Part shown: positions 1 through 18,532 of the stretch, piece by piece
Layout of the letters: each line of letters opens with the position of its first letter
Numbering within the stretch: the first letter of the stretch is position 1
Source: an uncultured Actinomycetota bacterium
Lineage (GTDB): Bacteria > Actinomycetota > Actinomycetes > Mycobacteriales > Mycobacteriaceae
Assembly: GCA_963846905.1 (NCBI GenBank)
Contig: CAWJYB010000056.1
Span: 1-32,000 of the forward strand
Length of the DNA stretch: 32,000 bases
Reading direction: 5' to 3'
Translations under genes and position numbers: made by a program
The notes under the pieces: generated by a model
Told to the model about the DNA's origin: nothing
The model's input: only the letters and a program-made list of their open reading frames with translations
Databases searched by the model: none

Positions 1-63
1 AGCGAGGAATACGGCGGAATCGAATACGGCGGGTTACCAGTAAACCACTGCATATTGCATCTG
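1..63. repeat. Composite repeat, copy 1 (possibly cut by the window edge)
   Basis: Reads gaGGAATACGGCGGAATCGAATACGGCGGGTTACCAGTAaaCCACTGCATATTGCATCTG. The left arm is the 11-mer GAATACGGCGG twice in a 15-bp register, the core is GGTTACCAGTA, and the right arm is CACTGCA-TATT-GCATCTG. The unit recurs at 8542, 9640 and 18468, and in part at 7749, 9847 and 19141. Confidence 0.8.
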
Positions 64-364
64 ATGAGGGCTCGTCTTCGATCCTCACTGTTCTGTCTCG
101 ATCCGTGGGTCACGGTGATCGATGCTTGGCTCATCGCGGACAAGGACGCGCCGCGCAAGCAGCGCCATACTGCCCGGCGGGTCTGGCAGCGTCTGGTCGT
201 CGAGCATCGGGCGACGCTCGCTGAGGTGACGGTGTCGCGTTACGTGGCGCGGCGTCGGGTCGAACTCGGGGCTGGCGACTCGTGAAGTGTCGATCCGCAG
301 ACGTATCTGGCGGGGGCCGAGGCGGAGGTCGACTTCGGCGAGTTCTACTCGACGATCGCCGGTG
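55..364 (+). pseudogene. istA: IS21-family IstA transposase fragment (N- and C-truncated, in-frame stop)
   Basis: The translation LDPWVTVIDAWLIADKDAPRKQRHTARRVWQRLVVEH...VSRYVARRR matches the conserved APRKQRHTA region of IstA. An in-frame TGA lies at 283-285, and the same frame continues QTYLAGAEAEVDFGEFYSTIAGG (the IstA xEAQVDFGE motif). Similarity stops abruptly at 364/365. Confidence 0.7.
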
Positions 365-1825
365 GGGAGAGATGGTCGAGCGGCCCGCACCGTACGCCGT
401 ATCGTTCGCGGATCCTGTCGAGCGTCTTGCGGTTGTTGTCCGCTCACGGCGGTGGTTGAGCTGGAATTTCATGAGGGCGGCCAGCCGCCGCGGTAGCGGG
501 TACCAGAGCAGCAGGTCGGATCCGAACCCGGCGAACACCTTCTTGGGAAGGTGGTCGAAGGCGAGGCTCAAGTTGTACCCGGTCAGCGGAAATACAATCG
601 GCATCGGCGATTTCCCGGTTTTAGCGCCCAACTCTTCGGCATCCGCCTCGTACAACGGCAGGGTGGTGAGCCCGCCGGTGAACATCAGGTGGGTCAGGAA
701 ATAGCCCGCCTGCAGCGTGAGCGGGATAACCGCCGATCGGGACTGTATCGACAGCGTCCGGCCCGACGGCGACACGAACGGTTCGTACGGATGCGAGCTG
801 CGCAGCATCAGACCGGTGCAGTTGACTATCCAGGTGCCGTCAACGACGCGCTCGGTGTTGCCGCTGCGGAACACGAGTTCAGCGGCACCGTCGCGATCGA
901 CTATATCGGCGAGGTGTTCGTTTTCGGCTCGGCGCAGGCCTTGGTTGATCACGGTCATCTCTGCGTCGGACGTACAACCTCCGAAGCCATGGGCGAACTC
1001 GCATTTGTCGCCCGTCGGGCCGGTCCCGAGAATGGAGTAGTACCAGCGCCGGACCTCCTCTTCGTTGGTCCCGTCGTACCGCTTGGCGAACTCAGTGGCC
1101 AGCGTGGGGAACGGTAGGCCGCCGAACCAGCACCTGACTCCGGTGGCGAACAGGACATCGCGCCGCAGTGCTATCGACCCGCTGCCGACCAGCATGTTCA
1201 CTTCGCGTCCCGGGCATTGCGTGATGAGTGTGTGGGCGGTGTCGAGCCCGGTCTTGCCACCGCCGATGATCCATACTGGGGCATCGGAGTCGACAATCCG
1301 GTGCATGTCGTTCGGGGTCGCCGATTTCACGCGGGCGCTGGAGACGGTCAGCGGCGGGTTCGGCTCAACTTGAAATCCGAAGGCCTTGATCAGCCGCTTG
1401 GCGGTAATAACCCGGGTCTGCCCATCGGGAGCCTGCAACGTGACCCAGACCAGGCTGCCGGTCTCCTCGTGCGATACGTAGTTCCAGCCAAAGCGCTCGT
1501 CGACCTCCACGCGCTTGGAGATGACGTTCAGGCAGTGCCGCAGGTGGTCGAGGATCTCCGGCTTGGTCGCGAGGTAGCTGCGCTCTTTACCGAGCGTCCA
1601 CTTGATATTCCCGGCGGTGAACAGTTGATATGGCTGGTGTAATCGGACGTAGTCGTAGGTGTCGGTCCACATCCCACCGACGCGCGTACGGCGGTCGACG
1701 AGCACCACCCGGTCGTTGCGGCCCAGGTACTGGCTTGCTGCGAAGAGGGCGTTCAGGCCGGCGATTCCCGCGCCGACAATGCAGATTTCGCACTGATCGA
1801 TTTGTAGCGTGTCCATGGCTGCCAC
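345..1825 (-). CDS. FAD/NAD(P)-binding oxidoreductase (flavin-monooxygenase-like), paralogue A; C-terminal frame disturbed
   Basis: It has an N-terminal dinucleotide fold (CIVGAGIAGLNA) and a second fold (WIIGGGKTGLDTA). By eye it is about 85% identical in protein to the ORF at 4550-6037. Relative to that paralogue, 1 nt is missing near 431-441. As a result the given ORF runs on to 131 with an Arg/Pro-rich nonsense tail. In the paralogue's frame it would stop at 345-347. Confidence 0.7.
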
Positions 1826-1873
1826 CCTTCCCCGCAGTTGGTCCTGGGGTTCAGTGTCTCGCAGACCGTTCCG

Positions 1874-1892
1874 GCCGATTAGAGTAATCGGC
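1874..1892. promoter_or_regulatory. Inverted repeat upstream of FMO-like gene A (possible operator)
   Basis: GCCGATTA-gag-TAATCGGC is an 8-bp perfect inverted repeat about 50 bp upstream of the ATG at 1825. The homologous position upstream of paralogue B (about 6086-6104) keeps only the outer 6 bp. Confidence 0.25.
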
Positions 1893-1989
1893 TACTCAAT
1901 TTCTGGACGCATTATCGCAGCTTTGTCGGCTCTAATGTCGCGTGTTGTTGAAACGTTTACGATTGATGTTGACGAGCAATTGATCAGCG

Positions 1990-2180
1990 GTCTTGGTTCC
2001 GACGAGCTGCTCGTGGCTGGTCGGGCGTGTGCTACCGGTGCATTCGGCGATCGGTTCTCGGTGTTTGGGCACCCCCTCGGCGGCCAGCAGCACGATCCGC
2101 ACCTGGGTGGCCAACCCCGCCCGTACCGTCGACGCCCGCGTCAACACCTCCAATCGCGCCCGATCCCCATCACGCAACAC
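1990..2180 (-). pseudogene. IS630-like HTH transposase N-terminal fragment
   Basis: The translation LRDGDRARLEVLTRASTVRAGLATQVRIVLLAAEGVP..IAECTGSTRPT resembles the N-terminal HTH region of IS630-family transposases. It lies in a ~420-bp block (about 1935-2355) that is present in unit A and absent from the homologous unit B. Confidence 0.45.
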
Positions 2181-2574
2181 TAGGTGAACTGACCTGGGCT
2201 CGACAGAGAGCGGCGCCGGACTGCGAACCGTGGAGTCGCACGGGTGTCAAGGGCATCGGCGAGGACTGATCGCCTTCCCGGCTCGCTCTTGCTGATGTGG
2301 CGCAGCGCCAGTCAGCGCGCGCCGGCAAGCCACTACGATGCCCGCAGCTAGCCGACCACCTTGGGCTACCATCACTCCCCCTCGTCCAGTACAGCTGCCA
2401 CGTGTCCGGAGCCGCCAATTAGATTGAGACATAACAGCCCTCACCGTCTCCAAACAACTGGCGGTTACCAGCAACCGCCCGCCAACCACATTGAGACCGG
2501 ACACTCGCCGCGCAACGTGATGGACATGACGCGGTCGTGTATACCGTCGTCCCGCCGGCACCACGCCGAAGATG

Positions 2575-3317
2575 ATGATGCTGCCGATCCGCGACAGCCA
2601 CGACCCGTCGCCGCAGTGGCCGATCACGGGGAGTCTGCGGTTGGACTTGGCGCGGAACAGCAGATCGGCGCCCGTGGCCGCGACCTGGCCGATCAGGTCC
2701 GCGGCGGCGAAGTTGCGGTCGGCGAGCAGCAGCATGCCTTGGTGGAGGCAGCCCAGAAGCTTTGGTGCATAGTTGGTTTCGCCCACGCGTAGGGTGCCGA
2801 AGACGGCGTCGAGTACGGTGCGGGTGCCGCATGCGACCACGGTCAGCATCCGCAGCATCGGATACCCCGACGGGCTGTTGCCGCCGCCGGCCCGGCCGAA
2901 CGCGGCCAGGTTCGCCGGGGTGTCGGGGGTGAACATCGACGTGCCGTCGATCGCGCATACCAGCAGGCCACGCCATCGCGCCGCACCGGCGGCGGGGCCG
3001 CGGACCAGGTCGAACAGCTCCCGCAGCGGTTTGACACCGATACGGCGACGGGCTTGGGCCAACGCCGAGGACACCGGATCGGCGACATCGATGCCATCCA
3101 GGCCCGCGGTCATCCGAGCCCACACCTGGCCGTAGCCGAGCTCAGCGAACAGCGCCGCCGCCAGCAGCAGGTACACCACCACCCGCGACGGCAACGCCCG
3201 GACCCTGGCCTGCACCGTCCGGGTCGATTCCAGCACCGCATCGACCATCTCGAACGGGACGATCTGGGTCAACTCGCCGAGGTGACCGGGCGCGAACCGA
3301 CCCGCAGCAACCACCAC
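2575..3317 (-). pseudogene. IS4-family transposase, C-terminally truncated (about 245 of an expected ~450 aa)
   Basis: The N-terminus is IVPFEMVDAVLESTRTVQARVRALPSRVVVYLLLAAALF (IS4 N-terminal domain type), followed by LLVCAIDGTSMF..LLLADRNFAA (first DDE aspartates). Protein-like sequence ends after ..GSWLSRIG near 2583. The element's outer end lies somewhere between 3317 and ~3485. Confidence 0.65.
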
Positions 3318-3484
3318 CGAACCACGAATGACAGACTGAACAGACAGCGGAACTCCCAGGTGAAAGGTCGTCTTGCGAGGACACCCATCAATACCGGGAG
3401 TTCCGCTGCCCTAACTCGCCGACACGCCGCACTCGTCACACTTGACCCAACAGCCACACCCTTAACTGAACGACATTGACACTA

Positions 3485-3757
3485 GTCCTCGGCATCGAAG
3501 CACTTCTGCCCCGGCGCCACGCCGCGGGATCCCTGGAAACCGAGGTGGCCTACCTGTATGACCGCACCGGCGGATCAATCGGATCACTGCGCGCGCTGCT
3601 CAGCGACGCCGCCATCGCCGCGATCCTAGGTGGCGAGGAACAGGTCGGGCGCAAGCTGCTCGACATGACCTCCACCGACTACGCCGCCGAGGAGTACGGA
3701 AGCCGCACAGCCGAGGGTGAACCCGCTTCACCGACGCCGTTGAGGAAAGCCGAATGA
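3485..3757 (+). pseudogene. tniB: TniB-like AAA+ transposition ATPase, C-terminal fragment only
   Basis: IEALLPRRHAAGSLETEVAYLYDRTGGSIGSLRALLSDAAIAAILGGEEQVGRKLLD matches the C-terminal TniB pattern (..RTGGxIGxL..LL..AA..AI..G.E.I....L). The fragment is 5'-truncated where the IS4 remnant begins. Its stop overlaps the next ATG (ATGA at 3754-3757). Confidence 0.6.
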
Positions 3758-4575
3758 CACTGGCGCCGTTGCCAATCCCCACCCGGATCTGTCACGGCGA
3801 GAACATCGACTCCTACAGCCGCCGCCACGCCGCCCACACTCATTGCGCACCCGCCGACGTCGACCGCGCATTGTGCGAACACAGAATCCTGACCACCATG
3901 GCGCGACGGCACCCCGCACGGTTGCAAGCGTGGCGGACCCTGGGCAGACTACGCGACACCGCATTCACCGCACCCCAGCACATCCTCGACGAAGAAGTGA
4001 CCGAGCGAGCACTGTGCCGGCGCTGCTCTCGCGGCGAACCCGCCCGCGGCAGGCTCCCCGACCTGGGTATGGTGTGCCTCCGACACCGACAATGGTTCGG
4101 ATCACCCCAGACCGACCTCCACGACTACCACCCGGCATTGGCCGCCGAATGCCACTTCAGACACGACCTAGCGGCCCGCAACGTCCTGCACGATTCGCTA
4201 CCCATGCTCATCGGCCGCGAATGCGCCAGCCCCGCCATCATCGGCGAAGACGAAATCACTCATCGGCGAGACCAAACGGGCATCGAAAACCCTGGGCGCT
4301 AACCTGTCCAGAACAGTTCAAGATCGCACGCCTGCTGACCCGCGCCACCTTTCTGCGGGCCGTGACTGATCCAGACGTCGCCGACGCCCAACGCCACGCC
4401 CTCGCCACCAGAGAAGTCGAGAAAATCATCCCCGACCGCGACGACGCCGACCCGTGGCGAGCCACCAACCGAGTATGGACGGCGATCACCCACCTCACCG
4501 ACCGCCGACGAGACGCCCGCATCTACGGCGTCCCCATCCGCGACACCTACTACAACATGCTGCGCCTCATCTGCC
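3754..4575 (+). pseudogene. tniQ: TniQ-family protein, frameshifted (~4290-4302) and 3'-truncated at 4575
   Basis: The N-terminus APLPIPTRICHGENIDSYSRRHAAH is the typical TniQ start (pattern: 'P..P.pGEsl.Syl.RlA'). The reading continues in another frame (ALTCPEQFKIARLL...YYNMLRLICRE) and ends exactly at the unit-B boundary, 4575/4576. Confidence 0.6.
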
Positions 4576-6037
4576 GGGAGAGATGGTCGAGCGGCCCGCA
4601 CCGTACGCCGCATCGCTGGCGGATCGTGTCGAGAGTCTTGCGGTTGGTTTGACGTTCGCGACGGTGGTTGACTTGGAATCTCGCGAAGGCAGCCAGCCGC
4701 CGCGGTAGCGGATACCAGAGCAGCAGGTCAGAGCCGAAACCGGTGAATACTTTGGTGGGGAGGTGGTCAAATGCGAGGCTCAGGTTGTACGCAGTCAGAG
4801 GGAATACCGCTGGTATAGGCGATTTCCCTAATTTGTCCCGCAGGTCTTCCAGATCGAGTTCATACAACGGGAGGGTACTGAGCCCGCCGGTGAACATCAG
4901 GTGGGTGAGGAAATAGCCCGCCTGGAGAGTGATCGGGATGACCGCCGATCTGTGTTGTATCGACAGCGTCTGGCCCGACGGCGAGACGAATGGCTCGTAC
5001 GGATGCGAGCCACGCAGCTGTAGACCGGTGCAGTTGACGATCCACGTGCCCTCGGCGACGCGCGTGGTCTGCCCGCTCCGGTACACGAGTTCGGCGTGAC
5101 CATCGCGATCGACCACATCAGCGAGGTATTCGTTGTCGGCTCGCCGCAGGCCGGTGTCGATGACGGCCATCTCGACATCGGACGTACAGCCGCCGATGCC
5201 ATGGGCGAACTCGCATCGCTCACCCGTTGGACCTGTCCCCACGGCTGAGTAGAGCCAGCGCCGGACCTCGTCTTCGTTGGTCCCGTCGTAGCGCTTCGCG
5301 AACTCGGTGCTGAGGGTGGTGAACGGCAGGCCGCCGAACCAGCGACTCGCTCCCGTACTGAACAGGACATCGCGGCGCAGCGCCATTGACCCGCTGCCGA
5401 CCAACATGTTGACCTCACGGCCCGGGCATTGCGTGATGAGCGTGTGGGCGGTGTCAAGACCGGTCTTGCCACCGCCGATGATCCACACCGGGGTGTTGGA
5501 GTCAACGATCCGGTGCATGTCGTTCGGGGTCGCCGACTGCACGCGTGTACTGGAGACCGCCAGCGGCGGATTCGGCTTCATCTCAGATCCGAACGCCTTG
5601 ATGAGCCGCCTGGCGGTAATCACCCGGGTCTGCCCGTCAGGAGCCCGCAACGTCACCGAGACCAGGCCACCGGACTCCTCGTGCGACACATAGTCCCAGC
5701 CCAAACGCTCATCGATGTCCACCCGGCGCGAGAGGACGTTCAAACAGTGCCGCAGATGGTCGAGAATCTCCGGCTTCGTCGCCAGGTAGCAGCGGTCCTT
5801 GCCGAGCGTCCACTTGATATTCCCGGCGGTGAACAATTGATACGGCTGGTGCAATCGGACGTAGTCGTAGGTGTCGGTCCACATCCCACCGACGCGCGTA
5901 CGGCGGTCGACGAGCACCACCCGGTCGTTGCGGCCAAGGTACTGACTTGCTGCGGAAAGGGCGTTCAGGCCGGCGATTCCCGCGCCGACAACGCAGATTT
6001 CGCACTGATCGATTTGTAGCGTGTCCATGGCTGCCAC
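4550..6037 (-). CDS. FAD/NAD(P)-binding oxidoreductase (flavin-monooxygenase-like), paralogue B
   Basis: This is a 495-aa intact ORF with the same two dinucleotide-binding motifs as paralogue A. The last 8 codons (RQMRRSML) lie beyond the A/B homology boundary at 4576, in antisense tniQ DNA. Confidence 0.75.
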   Translation of the reverse strand: MAAMDTLQIDQCEICVVGAGIAGLNALSAASQYLGRNDRVVLVDRRTRVGGMWTDTYDYVRLHQPYQLFTAGNIKWTLGKDRCYLATKPEILDHLRHCLNVLSRRVDIDERLGWDYVSHEESGGLVSVTLRAPDGQTRVITARRLIKAFGSEMKPNPPLAVSSTRVQSATPNDMHRIVDSNTPVWIIGGGKTGLDTAHTLITQCPGREVNMLVGSGSMALRRDVLFSTGASRWFGGLPFTTLSTEFAKRYDGTNEDEVRRWLYSAVGTGPTGERCEFAHGIGGCTSDVEMAVIDTGLRRADNEYLADVVDRDGHAELVYRSGQTTRVAEGTWIVNCTGLQLRGSHPYEPFVSPSGQTLSIQHRSAVIPITLQAGYFLTHLMFTGGLSTLPLYELDLEDLRDKLGKSPIPAVFPLTAYNLSLAFDHLPTKVFTGFGSDLLLWYPLPRRLAAFARFQVNHRRERQTNRKTLDTIRQRCGVRCGPLDHLSRQMRRSML

Positions 6038-6318
6038 CCTTCCCCGCCCCTGTCCTACTAGCGGTCCAGTGTCTCGCAGACCGATCCGGCCGATCAGAGC
6101 AATCGGCTACTCGTTTCCTGGAAGTATGCTGGCAACTTTGTTGGCTCTCGGTGATCATCAACCGGGCTACTACTCCCGTTGTCCAGTAGTCGACCACCTG
6201 TCCGGAACCGCCAAGCAAACTGAGACATAACAGCCACTGATAATCTCAAAATAACTGGCGGTCGCCAGCGGCTGGCCTTCCCCCGAAACCGTGGAGGCAT
6301 CAGCTATAAGGAGTAGCG

Positions 6319-6609
6319 ATGTCAGAGAAACGGAAGAAGTACGACCGGGAGTTCCGTGAGGGGGCTGTTCGGATTGTGCGTGAGACGGGTAAGTCGATCG
6401 CGCAGGTGGCTCGGGATCTGGGGATCCATGAGGGCACTCTGGGCAATTGGGTTGCCCAGGACCGCGAGGCTCGGGAGGGTCGTGGGGAGTTGACCCGCGA
6501 CGATCTCGAGGAGCTCAAACGCCTGCGCAGCGAGAACGCCGAGTTGCGGATGGAGCGCGATGTCCTCAAGCGATCAGTGGTCCTGTGGGTGAAGGAGGCG
6601 ACGAAGTGA
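6319..6609 (+). CDS. IS3-family transposase OrfA (HTH)
   Basis: The 96-aa product is MSEKRKKYDREFREGAVRIV..SIAQVARDLGIHEGTLGNWV followed by a leucine-zipper-like LEELKRLRSENAELRMERDVLK. An SD-like aaggag lies upstream. Confidence 0.9.
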   Translation: MSEKRKKYDREFREGAVRIVRETGKSIAQVARDLGIHEGTLGNWVAQDREAREGRGELTRDDLEELKRLRSENAELRMERDVLKRSVVLWVKEATK

Positions 6610-7541
6610 GCGTGGCACGTTTCATCGCCGACCAGAGGACCAAATATCTAGTGCCACATGTGATTACGTGCGTGTTGTTGGGTGTCAGCGTGTCGTGGTT
6701 CTACAAGTGGATCGCCCGTGCTGAGTCGACCGATGGGTTGCATACCGACACCGATCGGCGCCGCGCGCGCCTCGATACCGCAGTCGCCGCGGCGTTCGCG
6801 GCGGCCAAGGGATTGCATGGTTCGCCGCGGCTGATCGCTGACCTGCGCGATCTGGGTTGGGAAGTGTCGGAGAAGACGGTGGCCGACTCGATGCGCCGCC
6901 AGGGTTTGGTGGCGCGCCGCATAAAGCGCCGCAATGGGCTCACCAAGCAGGACAAGACGGCACCGAAGTTTCCTGACCTGGTCAAACGGGACTTCACCGC
7001 GGCGGCGCCGAACCGCAAATGGGTCGGCGACATGACCGAGATCCCCACTGAGTCCGGGCAGAAACTGTATCTGGCGACGGTGATTGACCTCTATAGCCGC
7101 CGACTGCTGGGGGCGGCCATGGGCCTGCACCCGGATGCCGACTTGGCGTGTGCGGCGATCAAAATGGCCGTGGCCGCGCGCGGCGGCCGTCAAGCGATCT
7201 GGCGGGCTGAGGAGTCCGACCGGGTCATATTCCATACCGACCGCGGTAGCACCTATACCGCACACGCGTTCACCAAGCTGTGCCGGCAGTTGGGGATTCG
7301 GCAGTCGATGGGCCGGGTCGGATCGTGTTTCGACAACGCCGCCGCGGAGGCGTTCTTCTCCTCGTTGGAATGGGAGGTGCTGTCCCGCAATCGTTTCCGT
7401 GATACGATCCATGCGCAGGCTGTGGTTATCGACTGGTGCTACACGTTCTACAATCACCAACGCCGGCACAGTGCCGCCGACGGGCTATCGCCCGTCAACT
7501 ACGAGATCAGGGAATCCAAGACCAAGCCGGAAGCGGCATAG
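6606..7541 (+). CDS. IS3-family transposase OrfB (DDE/rve integrase core)
   Basis: GTG at 6606 overlaps the orfA stop (GTGA). The product contains WVGDMTEI, FHTDRGSTYTA and NAAAEAFFSSLEWE (DDE triad context). I saw no canonical A6G slippery heptamer in the orfA/orfB overlap. Confidence 0.85.
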   Translation: MSVARFIADQRTKYLVPHVITCVLLGVSVSWFYKWIARAESTDGLHTDTDRRRARLDTAVAAAFAAAKGLHGSPRLIADLRDLGWEVSEKTVADSMRRQGLVARRIKRRNGLTKQDKTAPKFPDLVKRDFTAAAPNRKWVGDMTEIPTESGQKLYLATVIDLYSRRLLGAAMGLHPDADLACAAIKMAVAARGGRQAIWRAEESDRVIFHTDRGSTYTAHAFTKLCRQLGIRQSMGRVGSCFDNAAAEAFFSSLEWEVLSRNRFRDTIHAQAVVIDWCYTFYNHQRRHSAADGLSPVNYEIRESKTKPEAA

Positions 7542-7748
7542 GAAACCCTCCACGATTTCGGGGGAACCACACGGTCGCCAGCGGCCGCCCGTCAGTTTGG
7601 ATTGAGACCGGACAACTCGATCAGCGACTGACGCTATGTTGGCTGACGCACAAGGGGCGCAAGCCTGTCGAGCGCGCGGCCGTCAAGTGCGTCAGCGAGG
7701 CCGGTCGAGTTGACCCGACTTGCCGACAAACTACCGCTCCGCCTTGCT

Positions 7749-7788
7749 GGTTACCAGTAGAGCACTGCGTATTGCACTGCGACCCAAC
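7749..7788. repeat. Composite repeat, copy 6: right half only
   Basis: Reads GGTTACCAGTAGAGCACTGCGTATTGCACTGCGACCCAAC. It matches the core and right arm of copies 1 and 4. The sequence immediately to its left (ccgctccgccttgct) has no similarity to the GAATCGAATA arm. It ends 46 bp from the vapC stop. Confidence 0.7.
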
Positions 7789-8504: not shown

Positions 8505-8541
8505 ATAATCGTAGAATACCGTCTTCTGGGGTAGAACCGAA

Positions 8542-8608
8542 GAAGATACAGGAATCGAATATGGAGGGTTACCAGCAGACTACGCCGTTTTCGTCGGATG
8601 AATCACGG
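8542..8608. repeat. Composite repeat, copy 2 (degenerate, full length)
   Basis: Reads gaagatacaGGAATCGAATATGGAGGGTTACCAGCAGAC, then tacgccgttttcgtcggATGAATCACgg. The second part parallels the tail of copy 3 (gtgcgccacatccaccaggTGAATCACca). It sits ~50 bp upstream of vapB1. Confidence 0.65.
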
Positions 8609-9490: not shown

Positions 9491-9639
9491 GCCTGTCTGG
9501 CGCTTGGCGTGATTTTCTATCCACAAACTCTGCGCACGGTTGATGGGTCAGGACCGAGGATTGAAACGACGACCCCCGGCTGGCGGATGACGACTCCCCT
9601 GCGTACCAACTGGCCAACCCGCTGGCGGTACCTTCAATG

Positions 9640-9720
9640 GAGGAATACGGCGGAATCGAATACGGCGGGTTGCCAGTAGAGTGCGCCACATCCACCAGGT
9701 GAATCACCATCCGTGTCCGG
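9640..9720. repeat. Composite repeat, copy 3 (full length)
   Basis: Reads gAGGAATACGGCGGAATCGAATACGGCGGGTTGCCAGTAGAGtgcgccacatccaccaggtgaatcacc. Its left arm is identical to copy 1. Confidence 0.8.
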
Positions 9721-9846
9721 TCATCAGCAAATTGCGGACTATGCCCCTCGCTACCTACACTTGACACCCTACCGAGGTTGATCGCGACAAGGATCCGGGC
9801 TCTCCCTGGCTCGACCGGACCGCACAACCCCGGGCGCCTAGGCCCG

Positions 9847-10118: not shown

Positions 10119-10182
10119 GTGAAAGTCGGCCCGGAGCGCGGTGACAGCCTTGCGGCTGTTCCGTTTCTCCGGGCCGCTTCCC

Positions 10183-10216
10183 GAATCCGGCATGCATCTT
10201 TCAATGCACCGGGCTC
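10183..10216 (-). ncRNA. Group II intron domain V
   Basis: The minus strand reads GAGCCCGGUGCAUU-GAAA-GAUGCAUGCCGGAUUC. It is 34 nt long, with the AGC triad, a GAAA tetraloop, a 2-nt bulge (UG) on the 3' strand and one C/A mismatch. The RT stop codon (10201-10203) lies inside it. Confidence 0.8.
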
Positions 10217-10986
10217 TCCACAAGACCCGTCGTGGTGTCGTGGTGCTCCTCGTCGCCGATGAGCGGCCAGGGTGTCGGGATGACCGAGCCGCGGTAGCGG
10301 TATCGGGTCGTGCCGATCTTGGACAGATCGATCAGTGTCATCTCGTGCCCGGCTGGCCACCATCGTCCGCCGCAGTACTGCCGGCGGAGGTGTTTCCAGG
10401 TCGATTTCGGGTGTTTACGGCGTATCCATCGCCAAACCGTATGCCACACATAGTGGTTGAGGTAGGAGAAGACAGCCGAGGACACCCCGGCCCGGAAATG
10501 CCCAGCCCAGCCCCGCAGCGTCGCGTTCAAGCGGCGCAGCAGTTCATCGAGCGGCTGGGTGGTCGAGACCTGTCGTGAAATCGTCTTGACCTTCCGCGTG
10601 GCGGCCTGAACGGCTTTCTTCGACGGATAGGTGTAGACGTAGTAGCGGCTGGTTCCCCGCTTGCGGTGACGCTGGATGTGCCACCCGAGGAAGTCCAGGC
10701 CCTCGTCGATATGGGTGATCAGGGTCTTGTCCGGCGACAGACGCAATCCCATCCCCGCCAACACGGTGGTGATCTGCTCCCGTAGCGCCTCGGCATCGGC
10801 TTTGGTGCCCTTGACCATCAGACACCAGTCGTCGGCATAACGGACCAACCTAAAATTCGGCAGTCCGTGGCGAAGCCGTTTAGCCCGCTCCACCTTGCCG
10901 GTGCTCGGCCCACCAGGAGCCTGGGCGATGTACTCGTCCAGCACCGACAACGCGACATTAGCCAACAATGGCGACAAGATTCCACC
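10201..10986 (-). pseudogene. Group II intron reverse transcriptase/maturase, C-terminal part
   Basis: GG-ILSPLLANVALSVLD...RYADDWCLMV (RT5 YADD)...FLGWHI...LNATLRGWAGHF (X/maturase region). No HNH endonuclease domain is evident. The frame continues from the fragment at 15762-16478 once the RIT is removed (..GTPQGG|ILSPLL..). Confidence 0.85.
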
Positions 10987-11131: not shown

Positions 11132-12361
11132 ATGGCGACTTTGTCTGCGTTGGTGTCGGGCCTGGAGGCGGAGTTACAGCGTTTGGGCTACAAGGATTCG
11201 ACGCTGGTTTGGTACCGGGGTTGTTGGCGGCGGATGCAGAAGTACTTCGCTGCGCGTGGTGTCGAGGAGTTCTCCCTGGATGCGGCGATGGCGTGGGTCG
11301 ACGACGCGTGTGGGTTTTTCGGCAAGGAGCAGGCCGGCACCCTGAAGCGCACCGATGTGTATTTGTTCAGGGTCGCTCAGATGCTGGGGGATTACGCGGT
11401 CCACGGGGCGGTGCTGCGCCGCTATAACCGGTCGGTGAGCAAGCTGGACGGGGCCGGTGCCGAGACGGTCGCCCGGTTCCAGGCGCACCTGCGCTCGGCT
11501 GGGCGCTCGGCCTCGACCGTGCGGACCTACGGGACGCTGGCCGGGGAGTTCGTCGCGTTCACCGGCACCCGCGGAGGGCTGGGCTGCTGCGACGCCGCCA
11601 TGATCGGGGCGTTTGTTGCCACGCTGACCGGATACCAGTTCAAGACTGTCGAGCAGAAACTGTGTGCGGTGCGGTCGTTCCTGCGGTTCGCCTGCGCCGC
11701 CGGCCTGGTCGACGGGGCGTGTCTGGAGGCGGTGCCCGCGGCGCGCTCGGCCAGGCAGGCCAGGATTCCGTCGGTGTGGGATCCGGGCGAGGTGGCCAGG
11801 ATCGTGGAAGCGATCGACCGCGGCAACCCGTGCGGGAAACGGGATTACGCGATCATCCTGCTGATCACCAGGCTCGGGCTGCGCGGCGTGGACATCAAGC
11901 GGCTGGAGTTCGCCGACTTCGACTGGCCGGGCAACCGGCTATTCGTGACGCAGGCCAAGACCGGTCACCGGGTGCAGTTGCCGCTGCTGAAAGATGTTGG
12001 CTGGGCGGTGATCGACTACATCCGCCACGCCCGGCCGGACTGCGACTGCCGGCAGGTGTTCGTGCGGCACACGGCCCCGATCGGCCCGTTCTCCGACCAG
12101 GATCATCTGCATCAGGTTCTGGTCAAACATGCCCGCGCAGCACACGTTGCGGTGAGCGAGAAACGCCGCCATGGCATGCACTCGCTGCGGCATTCGCTGG
12201 CGACCCGGCTGATGGAAAGCGGCACACCGGTCGAGCAGATCGCCGACATCCTCGGTCACCAGTCCGTCGAGTCGACCGGTGTCTACCTGAAATCCTCGTT
12301 GGGCCTGCTGGCCAAGTGCGCGCTGGACCCGGACGCACCGGCGAACGGGGCGTCGCGATGA
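11132..12361 (+). CDS. ritA: Tyrosine recombinase RitA-like (409 aa)
   Basis: It has GLRGVDIKRLEF (Arg I), HSLRHSLATRL (HxxR) and LGHQSVESTGVYLK (His/Tyr). It is the first and longest of the trio, with a GGAGG SD-like sequence 9 nt upstream. Confidence 0.85.
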   Translation: MATLSALVSGLEAELQRLGYKDSTLVWYRGCWRRMQKYFAARGVEEFSLDAAMAWVDDACGFFGKEQAGTLKRTDVYLFRVAQMLGDYAVHGAVLRRYNRSVSKLDGAGAETVARFQAHLRSAGRSASTVRTYGTLAGEFVAFTGTRGGLGCCDAAMIGAFVATLTGYQFKTVEQKLCAVRSFLRFACAAGLVDGACLEAVPAARSARQARIPSVWDPGEVARIVEAIDRGNPCGKRDYAIILLITRLGLRGVDIKRLEFADFDWPGNRLFVTQAKTGHRVQLPLLKDVGWAVIDYIRHARPDCDCRQVFVRHTAPIGPFSDQDHLHQVLVKHARAAHVAVSEKRRHGMHSLRHSLATRLMESGTPVEQIADILGHQSVESTGVYLKSSLGLLAKCALDPDAPANGASR

Positions 12362-15010: not shown

Positions 15011-15056
15011 CGCTACTCCTTATAGCTGATGCCTCCACGGTTTCGGGGGAAGGCCA

Positions 15057-15634
15057 CAGGCCGCCGTGACGCGACCCTGCTGGCCACCCTCTACGACACC
15101 GCCGCCAGGGTCCAAGAACTCGCCGACCTGACCGTACGCGACATCCGCCCCCAGCCCCCTGCCCTGGCCGTGCTGACCGGCAAGGGCCGCAAAACCCGCC
15201 ACGTCCCGCTCGGCGACAACACCGCAGCACTGCTCAACGCCTACCTGACCGAACACGGCCTCGACAAACCCGGCCACGACGACCACCCACTGTTCACCAA
15301 CCAGCATCGCAACAAACTCAGCCGCGGCGGCATCGCCTGGATCATCGGCAAATACCAAGCCCAGGAAGCCGATCCGACGCTCACCAACGCTCGCCTCAGC
15401 CCACACATTCTGCGGCACAGTCGGGCCATGCACCTCTACGAAGCAGGCGTGCCGCTGCCCTACATCCGCGACATCCTCGGACACGTCGACCTGACCACCA
15501 CCGAGATCTACGCACGCGCCTCCACCGAGGCCAAACGCAAAGCCCTCGAAGCCACCTACACCGAAATCGTCACCGACGAGCTACCCGAATGGAACCACGA
15601 CAGCGGGCTGCTCACCTGGCTCGCCAGCCTGTGA
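15057..15634 (+). pseudogene. ritC: Tyrosine recombinase RitC-like, C-terminal catalytic part
   Basis: ..GRRDATLLATLYDTAARVQELADLTVRDI (Arg I), HILRHSRAMHL (HxxR), LGHVDLTTTEIYAR (His/Tyr). Confidence 0.8.
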
Positions 15635-15653
15635 GCTCAGCACGCACCACGAG

Positions 15654-15735
15654 GTTATGCGCAGTGATCGACCCCAAAATCGCTGTCACCAGGCCTTGCC
15701 GGCCGGCGCTGCGCATAACCCGGCGCTGTTCATAA
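15654..15735. repeat. RIT right terminal inverted repeat
   Basis: It is the reverse complement of the left TIR. It is followed by 26 extra bp (15736-15761), ggcggcTTATGTTCAGCTGAACATAA, which contain a perfect 20-bp palindrome related to the TTATGAACAG terminus. Confidence 0.85.
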
Positions 15736-15761
15736 GGCGGCTTATGTTCAGCTGAACATAA

Positions 15762-16478
15762 TCCACCCTGCGGGGTGCCGGCGGTGGTGTCCTCCAAGTG
15801 GCGTTCCTCGGTGAGGATGCCCGCCTTGAGGAACTCCTTCACCAGAGCCAGAACGCGTTTGTCTCCGACTCGTCGCCGCACCCGGTCCATGAGTGCCGGA
15901 TGCGAGATTTCGTCGAAACAGGCTTTGATGTCGCCCTCCACGATCCACTCGTAGCAACGAGGGCGGGTCGTGAAGAAGCGAACCTCGGCCACCGCGTCAT
16001 GAGTCCGGCGTTTCGGGCGGAAACCGTAGGAACACGGCAGAAAATCCGCCTCGAAAATCGGCTCCAACACCAGCTTCAACGATGCCTGGACCACCCGATC
16101 CGCCACGGTGGGAATCCCTAGACGACGCAGCCGTCCATTCGCCTTCGGGATCATCCGCTCACGCACCGGCAACGGGCGGAAACTACGGTCCTTCAAACTG
16201 TTCCGCAGCTCGTCGAGGAACTCCTCGACACCCTGCAACGCCGCAATCGAACGAGCGGTGCGCCCGTCCACTCCGGCCGTTGCGGCACCCTTGTTTCCGC
16301 TCACCCGATCCCACGCGACCAACAAGAACGCGGGGTCGGCAACGAGGTTGAACAGGTCGTCGAACCTGCGATGAGGATCATCGCGAGCCCAACGGTGCAG
16401 CTTGGTCTGGATCTTCAGTACCCGTTGTCGCGCCAGCATCAGCGCCAGCTCGAGTTCGTCGGTATTCACCGGCGACAT
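15762..16478 (-). pseudogene. Group II intron reverse transcriptase, N-terminal part
   Basis: MSPVNTDELE..WDRVSGNKGAATAGVDG (RT0/1), RMIPKANGRLRRLGIPTVADRVVQ (RT2), YGFRPKRRTHDA (RT3), DIKACFDEI (RT4), ..GTPQGG. The likely ATG is at 16478; the longer listed ORF begins inside the intron RNA leader. Confidence 0.85.
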
Positions 16479-17131
16479 CACACTCCTCCTGACCTTCCAG
16501 AACTTCCACTGCTGTCTTGCTGGCCCCCTTCGCCCTGCGGCCGCCTCTCGCGACCTCCACGGCGGGTCGTTACGCCCGCGACTACTACGGGACCTCCGCC
16601 CCACCACAGCACTCCTCGGCCGGACACGGGCCTTCCACCCGAACCGGACCGGCTGCCCGGACCGAGTGGGCGGAGCGCAGGATGGTTCCCACGTTCACCG
16701 AACGATCGATCGGTCAGGGAGGCACCCAGCTCTACCCCGGCAGCATCGCCACGCCTACGCCGCAGTCCTTCGACGCGGCCTCCCCACCGCCGATCAAAAA
16801 CGGCTTCGGAGTCACCCGCCACCACAGGTCCCCATGAGGGCTTTATGGTGGCGGCTGTGCGCTGCATCCCGGCCCATATCCGCCAGATTCGAGCCGGCAG
16901 AGAGGTTACGGGGCGTCGACCACTGGTTCGCTCACGCTGTACCTTCTGACCTTGCTCGGCCAGCCCGCGCCGTCTGGCAGTGCCGGCACGTCTGGCCTTT
17001 GTCGGGGCCGCTTGCCACCCTCACCGGCGTTCCCCGGATCGGGCTGCCCCCAGCTTCACCCGGACCGCTGCGACGGCCCGAGGGAGACGGTCTCTCACCA
17101 CCTCTCGATCTATCAGCGCCTCGTGGCGCAC

Positions 17132-18358: not shown

Positions 18359-18467
18359 CGCAATGCAGGCCAGCCGATCCGCGCGGGCCAAAGTGGGTCA
18401 GGTACTGCCGCCGGGCCGTCGGGCGTCGCCTCGTCTCATCAGCCGAAGTCACCGATGGCGAGTCGAA

Positions 18468-18532
18468 GGAGTACGGCCGAATCGAATATGGCGGGTTACC
18501 AGTAAACGTCGCCTTTGCACTGCGGCCCCAAC
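18468..18532. repeat. Composite repeat, copy 4 (full length)
   Basis: Reads GGAGTACGGCCGAATCGAATATGGCGGGTTACCAGTAAACgtcgcctTTGCACTGCGGCCCCAAC. It ends 8 nt from the mazF4 stop codon (18541-18543). Confidence 0.8.

What the first reader, a model, noticed from the sequence alone, without database searches (positions are those of the whole stretch)
365..7620. Two diverged copies of a ~2-kb FMO-gene unit end at the same nucleotide against two different truncated transposition genes
Units A (365 to ~2500) and B (4576 to ~7620, excluding the IS3) are homologous. Their FMO-like proteins are about 85% identical by eye. The homology covers the FMO-like gene, ~110 bp upstream, and a distal segment with GAGACATAACAG...ATTGAGACCGGACA. 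Both begin at exactly GGGAGAGATGGTCGAGCGGCCC. Beyond that point, unit A abuts a cut IS21 istA fragment and unit B abuts a cut tniQ. In both copies the FMO-like ORF runs off the end of the homologous block, so its last codons are supplied by whatever lies outside. This is behaviour typical of a gene at the extreme end of a mobile unit. I found no convincing terminal inverted repeats and no transposase inside the unit. It may be a cargo cassette moved by an unrecognised mechanism. Alternatively, the FMO-like protein may have a role in the element's biology.
Basis: partly seen in the sequence, partly recalled or inferred. Interest (0 to 1): 0.65.

Follow-up and report, generated by a model that had tools for sequence, protein, structure and literature searches.

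The report
Two decayed Tn7-like transposons carrying a flavoenzyme
The two "FMO gene units" are the cargo gene and left end of two diverged, decayed copies of an ordinary (though uncharacterised) mycobacterial Tn7-like transposon, one nested inside the other, so the shared boundary is a deletion breakpoint and not the end of a new kind of mobile cassette.

Summary
The homology is real: 365-1933 matches 4576-6148 at 84.5% nt, and a ~100-nt distal block is also shared.

- **Boundary 365/4576.** Related contigs show it is a breakpoint of copy A alone. A-type copies elsewhere (97.5-98% identical) continue past it into a tniQ-like gene, as copy B does.
- **tniQ-like gene.** In B it is not cut. It is full length (273 codons, its stop mutated TGA>TGC) and converges on the FMO-like gene, overlapping its 3' end.
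- **Distal block.** It is the left end of a Tn7-like transposon. It has three 19-nt repeats (CCGCCAAnTAGATTGAGAC) and the terminus ...GAGACCGGACA| at 2503 (A) and 7614 (B). Six elements with different cargo end at this nucleotide.
- **Complete relatives.** M. abscessus and metagenome contigs have R end-tnsA-tnsB-tniB-tniQ-like-cargo-L end.
- **Nesting.** Element A (89-2503) has termini TGTTCTGTCTCGAT...CCGGACA. It sits inside tnsA of element B with a 5-bp duplication (CTCAC/CTCGC). Its core genes were lost, leaving an IS21 fragment.
- **B decay.** B lacks its R end, most of tnsA, tnsB and part of tniB. It carries IS4 and IS3 insertions.
- **Cargo status.** The FMO-like gene is passenger cargo. 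Orthologues sit in ordinary chromosomal synteny.

This is a new member of a known kind and of modest interest.

The parts
1..61 (+). att-like repeat (copy 1). This sequence family lies just outside the R ends of related elements. Here it is fused directly to the tnsA start at a shared TGATGA, so B's own R end is missing.
   Evidence: It is similar to the flanks outside the R termini in L038, L040, L041 and L024. Other copies in the window are at 7746-7779, 8535-8606, 9636-9715 and 18462-18507.
62..88 (+). 5' end of tnsA of element B (codons 1-9, MRARLRSS..). Positions 84-88 (CTCAC) are the left copy of the 5-bp target duplication made by element A.
   Evidence: 24/24 nt identical to the L041 tnsA start. 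L041 TnsA hits PF08722 weakly.
89..110 (+). Right-end terminal site of element A (TGTTCTGTCTCGAT..).
   Evidence: It matches the R/L terminus consensus TGTnCnnTCTCRAT of L038, L040, L041, L024 and both L ends. It lies directly after the target duplication. The inner limit is approximate.
111..364 (+). Internal fragment of an IS21 istA gene, filling the deletion that removed tnsA-tnsB-tniB-tniQ of element A.
   Evidence: NCBIfam transpos_IS21, E 9e-7. The IstA motif GAEAEVDFGEF is read directly from the sequence.
365..1816 (-). FMO-like FAD/NAD(P) oxidoreductase gene, copy A. It has lost its last 8 codons and its stop. A 1-nt deletion near 440 is absent from L013 and may be an assembly error.
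   Evidence: It is 97.5-98% identical to the intact copies in L022-L031.
1817..1934 (-). Conserved upstream (promoter/leader) region of the FMO-like gene, copy A.
   Evidence: Conserved in A, B, L001, L002 and L014.
1935..2179 (-). 245-nt IS630-family fragment flanked by TA/TA. It is present only in the window and L013.
   Evidence: tblastn hits IS630 transposases. It is absent from L022, L025, L027, L030 and L031.
2180..2398 (.). A-lineage upstream segment, including a ~200-nt stretch absent from B, L023 and L032.
2399..2503 (+). Left end of element A. It has 19-nt repeats at 2412-2430 (direct), ~2444-2464 (inverted) and 2479-2497 (direct, terminal). The terminus ...GAGACCGGACA is at 2503.
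   Evidence: Six elements end at this nucleotide and then diverge.
2504..2534 (+). Continuation of tnsA of element B (codons 8-18). Positions 2504-2508 (CTCGC; CTCAC in L013) are the right copy of the target duplication.
   Evidence: 26/27 nt identical to L041 176-202. The L013 flank is read.
2534..2583 (+). Internal piece of tniB of element B. B has lost everything from tnsA codon 18 to this point.
   Evidence: 92% identical to L041 3304-3354.
2584..3480 (-). IS4-family element truncated in its transposase gene, inserted in tniB of element B. The limits are approximate.
   Evidence: Pfam Nterm_IS4 + DDE_Tnp_1, NCBIfam transpos_IS4_1. Plasmid hits cover 2613-3428.
3481..3757 (+). C-terminal 92 codons of tniB (tnsC-type ATPase) of element B.
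   Evidence: 72% aa identity to M. abscessus TniB residues 253-344. 93% nt identity to L041.
3754..4574 (+). Complete tniQ-like gene of element B (273 codons). The stop is mutated TGA>TGC, so the ORF reads on to 4652. A window-specific 1-nt gap lies at ~4292.
   Evidence: It is the gene after TniB in L033, L038, L040 and L041. Pfam TniQ matches below threshold in 13/29 relatives.
4550..6028 (-). Intact FMO-like oxidoreductase gene, copy B (492 aa from the ATG). Its last 8 codons overlap the tniQ-like 3' end on the opposite strand.
   Evidence: The C-terminus ...LDHLSRQMRRSML* is shared with P0002-P0005. DNA homology continues past the stop.
6029..6193 (-). Upstream region of FMO-like copy B.
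6194..6272 (+). Left end of element B, inner part. Repeats lie at 6208-6226 (direct) and 6243-6261 (inverted).
6273..7571 (+). IS3-family element inserted in B's left end. It is flanked by a 14-nt duplication, CGGTCGCCAGCGGC.
   Evidence: 99.85% identical to the second copy at 15056-13757. Pfam rve/HTH_21.
7572..7614 (+). Left end of element B, terminal repeat and terminus ...GAGACCGGACA at 7614.

Best explanation
Units A and B are the cargo-proximal parts of two diverged copies (~85% nt) of one family of mycobacterial Tn7-like transposons. The family is organised as R end - tnsA - tnsB - tniB - tniQ-like (273 aa) -> <- cargo - L end. In this sub-lineage the cargo is a single FMO-like FAD/NAD(P) oxidoreductase gene that converges on tniQ.

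Element B spans from left of position 62 to 7614. It has lost its R end, most of tnsA, all of tnsB and part of tniB. An IS4 fragment sits in tniB and an IS3 sits in the L end.

Element A (89-2503) transposed into codon 8/9 of B's tnsA and made a 5-bp target duplication. An IS21-associated deletion then removed A's own tnsA-tniQ, running from just inside A's R terminus to the base next to the tniQ stop codon. That deletion is the boundary at 364/365.

Shown here: the homologies, the ends, the target duplication, the nesting and the gene order in intact relatives.

Inferred: the order of events; that movement was catalysed by TnsA/TnsB/TniB with the TniQ-like protein choosing the target; and that A's insertion was directed by the att-like sequence at 1-61.
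For: (1) A-type copies in other samples (L022, L024) are 98% identical to A. They continue past 365 into tniQ and tniB that are 86-88% identical to B's 3670-4576.
(2) The tniQ-like family is 273 aa. B has all 273 codons.
(3) Intact cores with the order TnsA(PF08722)-TnsB(Mu-transpos_C)-TniB-TniQ-like occur in L038/L039 (M. abscessus), L040 and L041. L033 has the same core but with tnsB truncated and no tnsA. Cargo differs between these elements.
(4) Three 19-nt repeats and an identical terminus ...GAGAYYRRACA| are followed by unrelated flanks in A, B, L031, L032, L033 and L036. Inverted copies of the terminus lie 120-190 nt upstream of tnsA in L038, L040, L041 and L024.
(5) Window 62-85 and 2508-2534 are contiguous tnsA codons in L041. 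They are separated in the window by 89-2503 and bracketed by CTCAC / CTCGC (CTCAC in L013).
(6) The TniB C-terminus at 3481-3757 is 72% identical to M. abscessus TniB.
(7) A is closer to copies in other genomes (88-98%) than to B (84.6%), so A and B arrived separately rather than by local duplication.
Against: - No complete FMO-carrying element with both ends and a target duplication was found. L032 and L024 are also decayed.
- Only ~22 nt of A's R end survive, and they overlap the stretch that an IS21 profile aligns to (LDPW), so its inner limit is uncertain.
- The right copy of the target duplication differs by one base in the window.
- The TniQ assignment rests on gene position and sub-threshold Pfam hits. 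The AlphaFold model was too poor to use (pLDDT 59).
- Nothing here is experimental.
Confidence: 0.85

Rival explanations
1. One reading: a ~2-kb FMO cassette is itself the mobile unit. It has a precise end at 365/4576 and is moved by an unrecognised mechanism into other mobile-element genes.
For: Both copies lose homology at the same base, and mobile-element genes lie beyond it. Among close relatives the FMO-like gene is found in several different contexts: L001, L002, L014 and L032.
Against: B, L001, L002, L014, L022, L023, L024 and L032 all continue past that base. The A lineage has tniQ beyond it. The true breakpoint in A is 364/365. The sequence beyond it in B is the element's own intact gene. 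The variable contexts are explained by decay of Tn7-like elements: tniQ remnants of 40-50 nt persist in L001, L002 and L014.
Confidence: 0.03
2. A and B arose by a local segmental duplication of an FMO-containing chromosomal segment. They then diverged and were hit by IS elements. No transposition of the unit itself was involved.
For: The two copies lie in tandem, in the same orientation, 4.2 kb apart.
Against: A is 97.5-98% identical to copies in unrelated soil metagenomes but only 84.6% identical to B. B's tniQ is 92-93% identical to L041. A is bracketed by a 5-bp duplication inside a gene (tnsA) whose two halves are contiguous in L041. Both copies end in transposon termini shared with elements that carry other cargo.
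Confidence: 0.05
3. The FMO-like gene is native chromosomal DNA. The Tn7-like element (tniB-tniQ) merely inserted next to its 3' end, so the gene is a target-site neighbour rather than cargo. The distal repeat block would then be an unrelated MITE.
For: Tn7-like elements do insert next to the 3' ends of conserved genes. FMO orthologues exist in transposon-free synteny.
Against: The L end with the family's repeats lies beyond the FMO-like gene in A, B, L031 and L032. It has the same structure as the L ends that close the cargo region of L033 and L036. tniQ is at the cargo side of the core, not at the R end that faces the target. In A the target duplication encloses the FMO-like gene.
Confidence: 0.05

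Closest known systems
Tn7 and Tn7-like transposons (TnsA-TnsB-TnsC/TniB-TnsD/TniQ), specifically the uncharacterised, Actinobacteria-dominated clade of the survey of Benler et al. 2021 (PMC8649781)
   Same: The gene order in intact relatives is tnsA (PF08722), tnsB (Mu-transpos_C), tniB (PF05621), then a fourth gene with weak TniQ similarity. The termini are TGT...ACA with several transposase-site-like repeats, closely packed and direct at the R end. There is a 5-bp target duplication. Cargo lies between the targeting gene and the L end and varies between elements (R-M + TIR, catabolic genes, an oxidoreductase). R ends lie at a fixed short distance from a conserved flanking sequence.
   Different: The fourth protein is short (273-281 aa) and does not reach the Pfam TniQ threshold. 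The apparent target is a multi-copy ~60-100-nt repeat rather than a single-copy essential gene. The copies in the window are defective and nested. No member has been tested experimentally (the paper says this for the whole clade).
Tn5053/Tn402 family (TniA-TniB-TniQ-TniR)
   Same: It shares a TniB ATPase, a TniQ-type protein and a Mu-like DDE transposase.
   Different: Intact relatives here have a TnsA-like endonuclease and no resolvase next to the core. Tn5053-type elements lack TnsA and use TniR with a res site.
Class B flavoprotein monooxygenases / COG2072 'CzcO-like' FAD-dependent oxidoreductases
   Same: The cargo protein has two Rossmann-type dinucleotide motifs (VGAGIAG, GGGKTG). It hits Pyr_redox_2 and NAD_binding_8, with weaker hits to Pyr_redox_3 and Lys_Orn_oxgnase. 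Some sources name relatives CzcO or thioredoxin reductase.
   Different: There is no hit to the Pfam FMO-like family, no NCBIfam equivalog and no PDB relative by sequence. The substrate and reaction are unknown, so 'FMO-like' is only a loose label.

Membership tests
Tn7-like transposon | Core operon with TnsA-type endonuclease, TnsB DDE transposase, TnsC/TniB AAA+ regulator and a TnsD/TniQ-type target selector, in that order | tested here: met
   The order is met in intact relatives L038/L039, L040 and L041. The window keeps only tnsA codons 1-18, two tniB pieces and the whole fourth gene.
Tn7-like transposon | Termini 5'-TGT...ACA-3' with multiple repeated transposase-binding-type sites at both ends | tested here: met
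   The L end has three 19-nt repeats in six elements. The R end has 2-3 direct repeats in L024, L038, L040 and L041. The shared terminus is TGTnCnnTCTCRAT. Protein binding was not tested.
Tn7-like transposon | 5-bp target-site duplication | tested here: met
   Element A is flanked by CTCAC (84-88) and CTCGC (2504-2508; CTCAC in L013). The uninterrupted tnsA of L041 has CTTAC at this point. This is a single case.
Tn7-like transposon | Orientation-specific insertion at a fixed distance from a recognised attachment sequence, with the R end proximal | tested here: inconclusive
   R termini lie 21-25 nt after an (A/G)TGA preceded by CTGCATATTGCA and/or GGTTACCAG in the window, L038, L040 and L041. 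L024 is similar. There are few independent sites, and no empty site was compared.
TniQ/TnsD family (PF06527) | Significant match to the TniQ profile (N-terminal domain with zinc ribbon) | tested here: inconclusive
   The window protein has no hit. 13 of 29 relatives match PF06527 below threshold, best E 0.0017. The profile search of the PDB found nothing. The AlphaFold model had pLDDT 59 and was not usable.
Flavin-containing monooxygenase (FMO, PF00743) / class B flavoprotein monooxygenase | Match to the FMO-like profile with FAD and NADPH motifs plus the FMO-identifying motif | tested here: not met
   Only the generic Pyr_redox_2, NAD_binding_8 and DAO profiles exceed their thresholds. Pyr_redox_3 and Lys_Orn_oxgnase fall below threshold. 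There is no PF00743 hit. The two GxGxxG motifs are seen directly in the sequence.
IS21 / IS630 / IS4 / IS3 families (flanking debris) | Transposase profile matches | tested here: met
   IS21: NCBIfam E 9e-7, fragment only. IS630: tblastn to annotated IS630 transposases. IS4: Pfam + NCBIfam. IS3: rve/HTH_21, with two 1.3-kb copies 99.85% identical.

The most novel reading that the evidence does not exclude
This mycobacterial Tn7-like family may use its short, Pfam-invisible TniQ-like protein to home to a multi-copy ~60-100-nt sequence. That sequence reads GGAGGAATACGGCGGAATCGAATAYGGCGGGTTACCAGTA...CTGCATATTGCA..(A/G)TGA, and the window holds five copies, two of them upstream of divergent vapBC operons. 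Insertion would occur 21-25 nt beyond the motif. Elements would then pile up and nest in one another to build the IS-rich island seen here. A would have been able to insert into B's tnsA because deletion of B's R end placed that motif next to tnsA.
Probability: 0.3. Interest if true: 0.5.

Novelty: new member of a known kind. Interest (0 to 1): 0.3.

Why it matters
This result removes a candidate 'new mobility mechanism'. The behaviour is explained by Tn7-like transposition followed by nested insertion and deletion.

It has modest positive value in three ways.
- It delimits both ends, the repeat sites, the target duplication and a probable attachment motif for an actinobacterial Tn7-like family that the literature says is uncharacterised. 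The family also occurs in Mycobacteroides abscessus, where it carries defence cargo.
- It shows that an FAD-dependent oxidoreductase found in the chromosomes of the Mycolicibacterium mucogenicum group has been captured as single-gene cargo and spread among soil mycobacteria.
- It is a reminder that a 'shared boundary' between only two copies carries no information without an outgroup.

Tried and rejected
- **Plasmid collection.** The FMO-like gene has no match by DNA or protein. Only the IS3 and IS4 parts match.
- **Rfam.** Over the window only a group II intron domain at 10119-10218 matched. Nothing matched the repeat blocks. Around the M. abscessus R-end flank only chance miRNA hits appeared.
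- **PDB by sequence.** No relative was found for the oxidoreductase or for the tniQ-like profile.
- **AlphaFold on the tniQ-like family.** The model had pLDDT 59, so no fold search was run.
- **B intact / tniQ cut at ~4530.** I first read B as intact and tniQ as cut at about 4530. I revised this when the family length (273 aa) showed that tniQ runs to 4574 and overlaps the oxidoreductase gene tail to tail.
- **Window 1-62 as B's R-end inner repeats.** I first took this stretch to be the inner repeats of B's R end. I rejected that when L041 showed a different tnsA leader and placed the repeat outside R ends instead.
- **Distal block as a free-standing MITE.** I rejected this because the same structure closes the cargo region of elements with a full core.
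- **Frameshifts in copy A (near 440) and tniQ (near 4292).** These differ between the window and L013. They cannot be told apart from assembly errors.
Full report
**1. The observation**

- Self-comparison of the window confirms two homologous stretches. 365-1933 matches 4576-6148 (84.5% over 1578 nt), and 2398-2472 matches 6194-6269 (80%).
- After a 1.3-kb IS3 (6273-7571, delimited against its second copy at 15056-13757), the second block continues at 7572-7614.
- Both copies begin the homology at GGGAGAGATGG....
- The shared gene, on the minus strand, encodes a ~490-aa FAD/NAD(P)-binding oxidoreductase. It hits Pyr_redox_2, NAD_binding_8 and DAO but not the Pfam FMO family.
- A second, independent assembly from another sample (L013) carries the same arrangement. 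Outside the IS3 it differs by 24 substitutions and nine 1-nt indels in 7.5 kb. The structure is therefore real.

**2. The boundary at 365/4576 belongs to copy A only**

- The protein family is large (1402 hits at E <= 1e-10), and its members are 485-500 aa long.
- Copy B's C-terminus (...RCGPLDHLSRQMRRSML*) is shared by its closest relatives P0002-P0005. Copy A diverges.
- At the DNA level B stays homologous to loci from other samples (L001, L002-4, L014) to 4526-4536 on one side and to 6157/6176/6215 on the other. That is past both A/B boundaries. A stops at 365/366 and 1933.
- Soil-metagenome contigs carry copies 97.5-98% identical to A.
  - In L022 and L024 these copies run on past A's breakpoint into sequence 86-88% identical to B's 4145-4576 and 3670-4576.
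  - In L022, L025, L027, L030 and L031, A's 1934 is joined directly to 2180.
  - In L031 the homology continues to 2503.
- So the ancestral shared segment was tniB-tniQ-oxidoreductase-upstream-distal block.
- Relative to its own lineage, A's breakpoint is at 364/365, next to the complement of the tniQ stop codon.
- A is nearer to copies in other genomes (88-98%) than to B (84.6%). The two copies therefore did not arise by recent local duplication.

**3. The neighbour of B is an intact core gene, not a cut one**

- The ORF downstream of B's oxidoreductase gene aligns without gaps to a Nocardia plasmid protein, up to five residues from that protein's end.
- A database search shows a family whose usual length is 273 aa (also 276 and 281).
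- B has all 273 codons. The stop is TGA in L014, L022-24 and L032. It is TGC in B, so the ORF reads on to 4652.
- The two genes converge, and in B they overlap by about 25 nt. A 1-nt insertion relative to L002, L032 and ST-F2 moved the oxidoreductase stop 24 nt into tniQ. This explains the 8-codon tail.
- Remnants of this tniQ 3' end (40-50 nt) persist downstream of the oxidoreductase gene in L001, L002 and L014, each followed by different DNA.

**4. The element is a Tn7-like transposon**

- The 273-aa gene follows TniB in every informative locus.
  - L033: a truncated TnsB, TniB, then this gene, with PucR/arginase/permease/nitrilase cargo.
  - L038/L039 (Mycobacteroides abscessus): TnsA-like, TnsB, TniB, then this gene, with type I R-M + TIR cargo.
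  - L040 and L041: TnsA (PF08722)-TnsB-TniB-this gene.
  - An Arthrobacter plasmid annotated TnsA-like/Mu transposase/TniB.
- The window's 3481-3757 is the C-terminus of TniB (72% identity to M. abscessus residues 253-344).
- Thirteen of 29 family members match Pfam TniQ below threshold (best E 0.0017).
- Profile search of the PDB and an AlphaFold model (pLDDT 59) gave nothing usable.
- The TniQ assignment is therefore positional plus weak similarity.

**5. The distal block is the transposon's left end**

- It contains three copies of CCGCCAAnTAGATTGAGAC, arranged direct, inverted, then direct at the tip. It ends ...GAGACCGGACA at 2503 (A) and 7614 (B).
- The same structure and the same terminal nucleotide are found in L031 and L032 (oxidoreductase cargo), L033 and L036/L037 (other cargo). 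Each is followed by unrelated DNA.
- The inverted counterpart, TGTnCnnTCTCRAT followed by 2-3 direct repeats, lies 120-190 nt upstream of tnsA in L038, L040, L041 and L024.
- The oxidoreductase gene is thus the only gene between tniQ and the L end, which makes it single-gene cargo.
- Orthologues at 72-75% identity in Mycobacterium sp. ST-F2, M. mucogenicum and M. llatzerense lie in conserved, transposon-free synteny (MST/DinB, hydrolase, cutinase, Rieske, WS/DGAT). This is a likely source of the captured gene.

**6. Nesting**

- L041, the closest complete core (tniB-tniQ 93% identical to B's), shows four things:
  - window 62-85 is tnsA codons 1-8 (24/24 nt);
  - 2508-2534 is tnsA codons 9-18;
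  - 2534-2583 is an internal tniB piece;
  - 3481-4564 is the end of tniB plus tniQ.
- Hence 89-2503 is an insertion in B's tnsA. It begins TGTTCTGTCTCGAT and ends ATTGAGACCGGACA. It is bracketed by CTCAC (84-88) and CTCGC (2504-2508; CTCAC in L013). L041 has a single CTTAC at this point.
- That is the signature of Tn7-like transposition of element A.
- Inside A, only about 22 nt of the R end remain. They are followed by an IS21 istA fragment (NCBIfam E 9e-7), which abuts the oxidoreductase gene at 364/365.
- The simplest history is an IS21 insertion near A's R end, then a deletion that removed tnsA-tniQ.
- A also acquired a 245-nt IS630 fragment flanked by TA.
- B lost its R end. The att-like sequence at 1-61 meets tnsA at a shared TGATGA. 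B also lost tnsA codon 18 through part of tniB, received an IS4 that is now truncated, and has an IS3 in its L end.

**7. How it works**

- Shown: the architecture, the ends, the duplication, the nesting and the variable cargo.
- Inferred from established Tn7 biology:
  - TnsA and TnsB cut both strands at the TGT/ACA termini;
  - TniB couples them to a target-bound TniQ-type protein;
  - insertion is orientation-specific with the R end proximal to the recognised sequence.
- In line with this, R termini lie 21-25 nt beyond an (A/G)TGA preceded by CTGCATATTGCA and/or GGTTACCAG in the window, L038, L040 and L041. L024 is similar.
- The sample is small, and no empty site was compared.
- Neither copy in the window can move by itself.

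**8. Comparison and novelty**

- Benler et al. (PMC8649781) describe a clade of Tn7-like transposons that is dominated by Actinobacteria and has no characterised member. I did not place this family on their tree. The assignment rests on host phylum and TnsA-containing core gene content.
- The finding is a new member of a known kind. It is not a new mobility mechanism.
- The one less ordinary aspect is the apparent multi-copy target and the resulting nesting. That part remains a hypothesis.

**9. Verdict**

- Confidence in the Tn7-like explanation is about 0.85.
- Interest is 0.3.

Noticed in passing
window 1-67, 7746-7779, 8535-8606, 9636-9715, 18462-18507 (also L002 8501-8538, L024 2176-2229, flanks of L038/L040/L041): A ~60-100-nt repeat family reads GGAGGAATACGGCGGAATCGAATAYGGCGGGTTACCAGTA...(A/G)TGAATCA. 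It lies just outside the R ends of related Tn7-like elements and may be their attachment sequence. Copies at 8551 and 9652 sit upstream of divergently transcribed vapBC operons. There is no Rfam match.
   Followed up: partly
window 9716-9745: Directly after the repeat copy at 9636-9715, 21 nt past its GTGA, comes TGTCCGGTCATCAGCAAATTGCGG. This looks like the terminus of yet another Tn7-like element. A similar end faces the L end 10 nt away in L032 (12561-12600).
   Followed up: no
window 6259-6272 and 7572-7585: IS3 copy 1 is flanked by a 14-nt direct duplication (CGGTCGCCAGCGGC) of a hairpin-forming part of the transposon L end. The 3-bp duplication (CTG) is seen at copy 2. The hairpin stem shows compensatory changes between A (GGCGGTT/AACCGCC) and B (GGCGGTC/GGCCGCC).
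   Followed up: partly
window 10119-10977 and 15612-16607: A group II intron is split. Its domain V/VI (Rfam hit) and the RT C-terminal half plus maturase lie at 10119-10977. The RT N-terminal half lies at 15612-16607. They are separated by ~4.6 kb holding two tyrosine recombinase genes (11132-12361, 15029-15634) and IS3 copy 2.
   Followed up: no
window 440, 1472, 4292 (vs L013): Single-base indels that frameshift oxidoreductase copy A and tniQ differ between the window and the near-identical contig L013. Outside the IS3 there are nine indels against 24 substitutions. That ratio suggests long-read assembly errors rather than real pseudogenisation.
   Followed up: partly
window 1935-2179: A 245-nt IS630-family fragment encodes only the N-terminal HTH part and is flanked by TA/TA. 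It looks like a MITE-like deletion derivative inserted in the oxidoreductase upstream region. It is absent from all related metagenome copies.
   Followed up: partly
L038/L039 10871-18346 (Mycobacteroides abscessus): The same transposon family in M. abscessus carries a type I restriction-modification system plus a TIR-domain protein as cargo. This is a defence island on a Tn7-like element in a clinical species.
   Followed up: no
L014 1060-1090: In contig L014 the first ~20 nt of the L-end block are followed by a solitary 25-nt IS3-type inverted repeat (CCTCCACGATTTCGAGGGAACCACG). Downstream of the oxidoreductase gene, a truncated amidohydrolase gene is fused to a 36-nt tniQ remnant. This is another heavily decayed copy.
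   Followed up: partly
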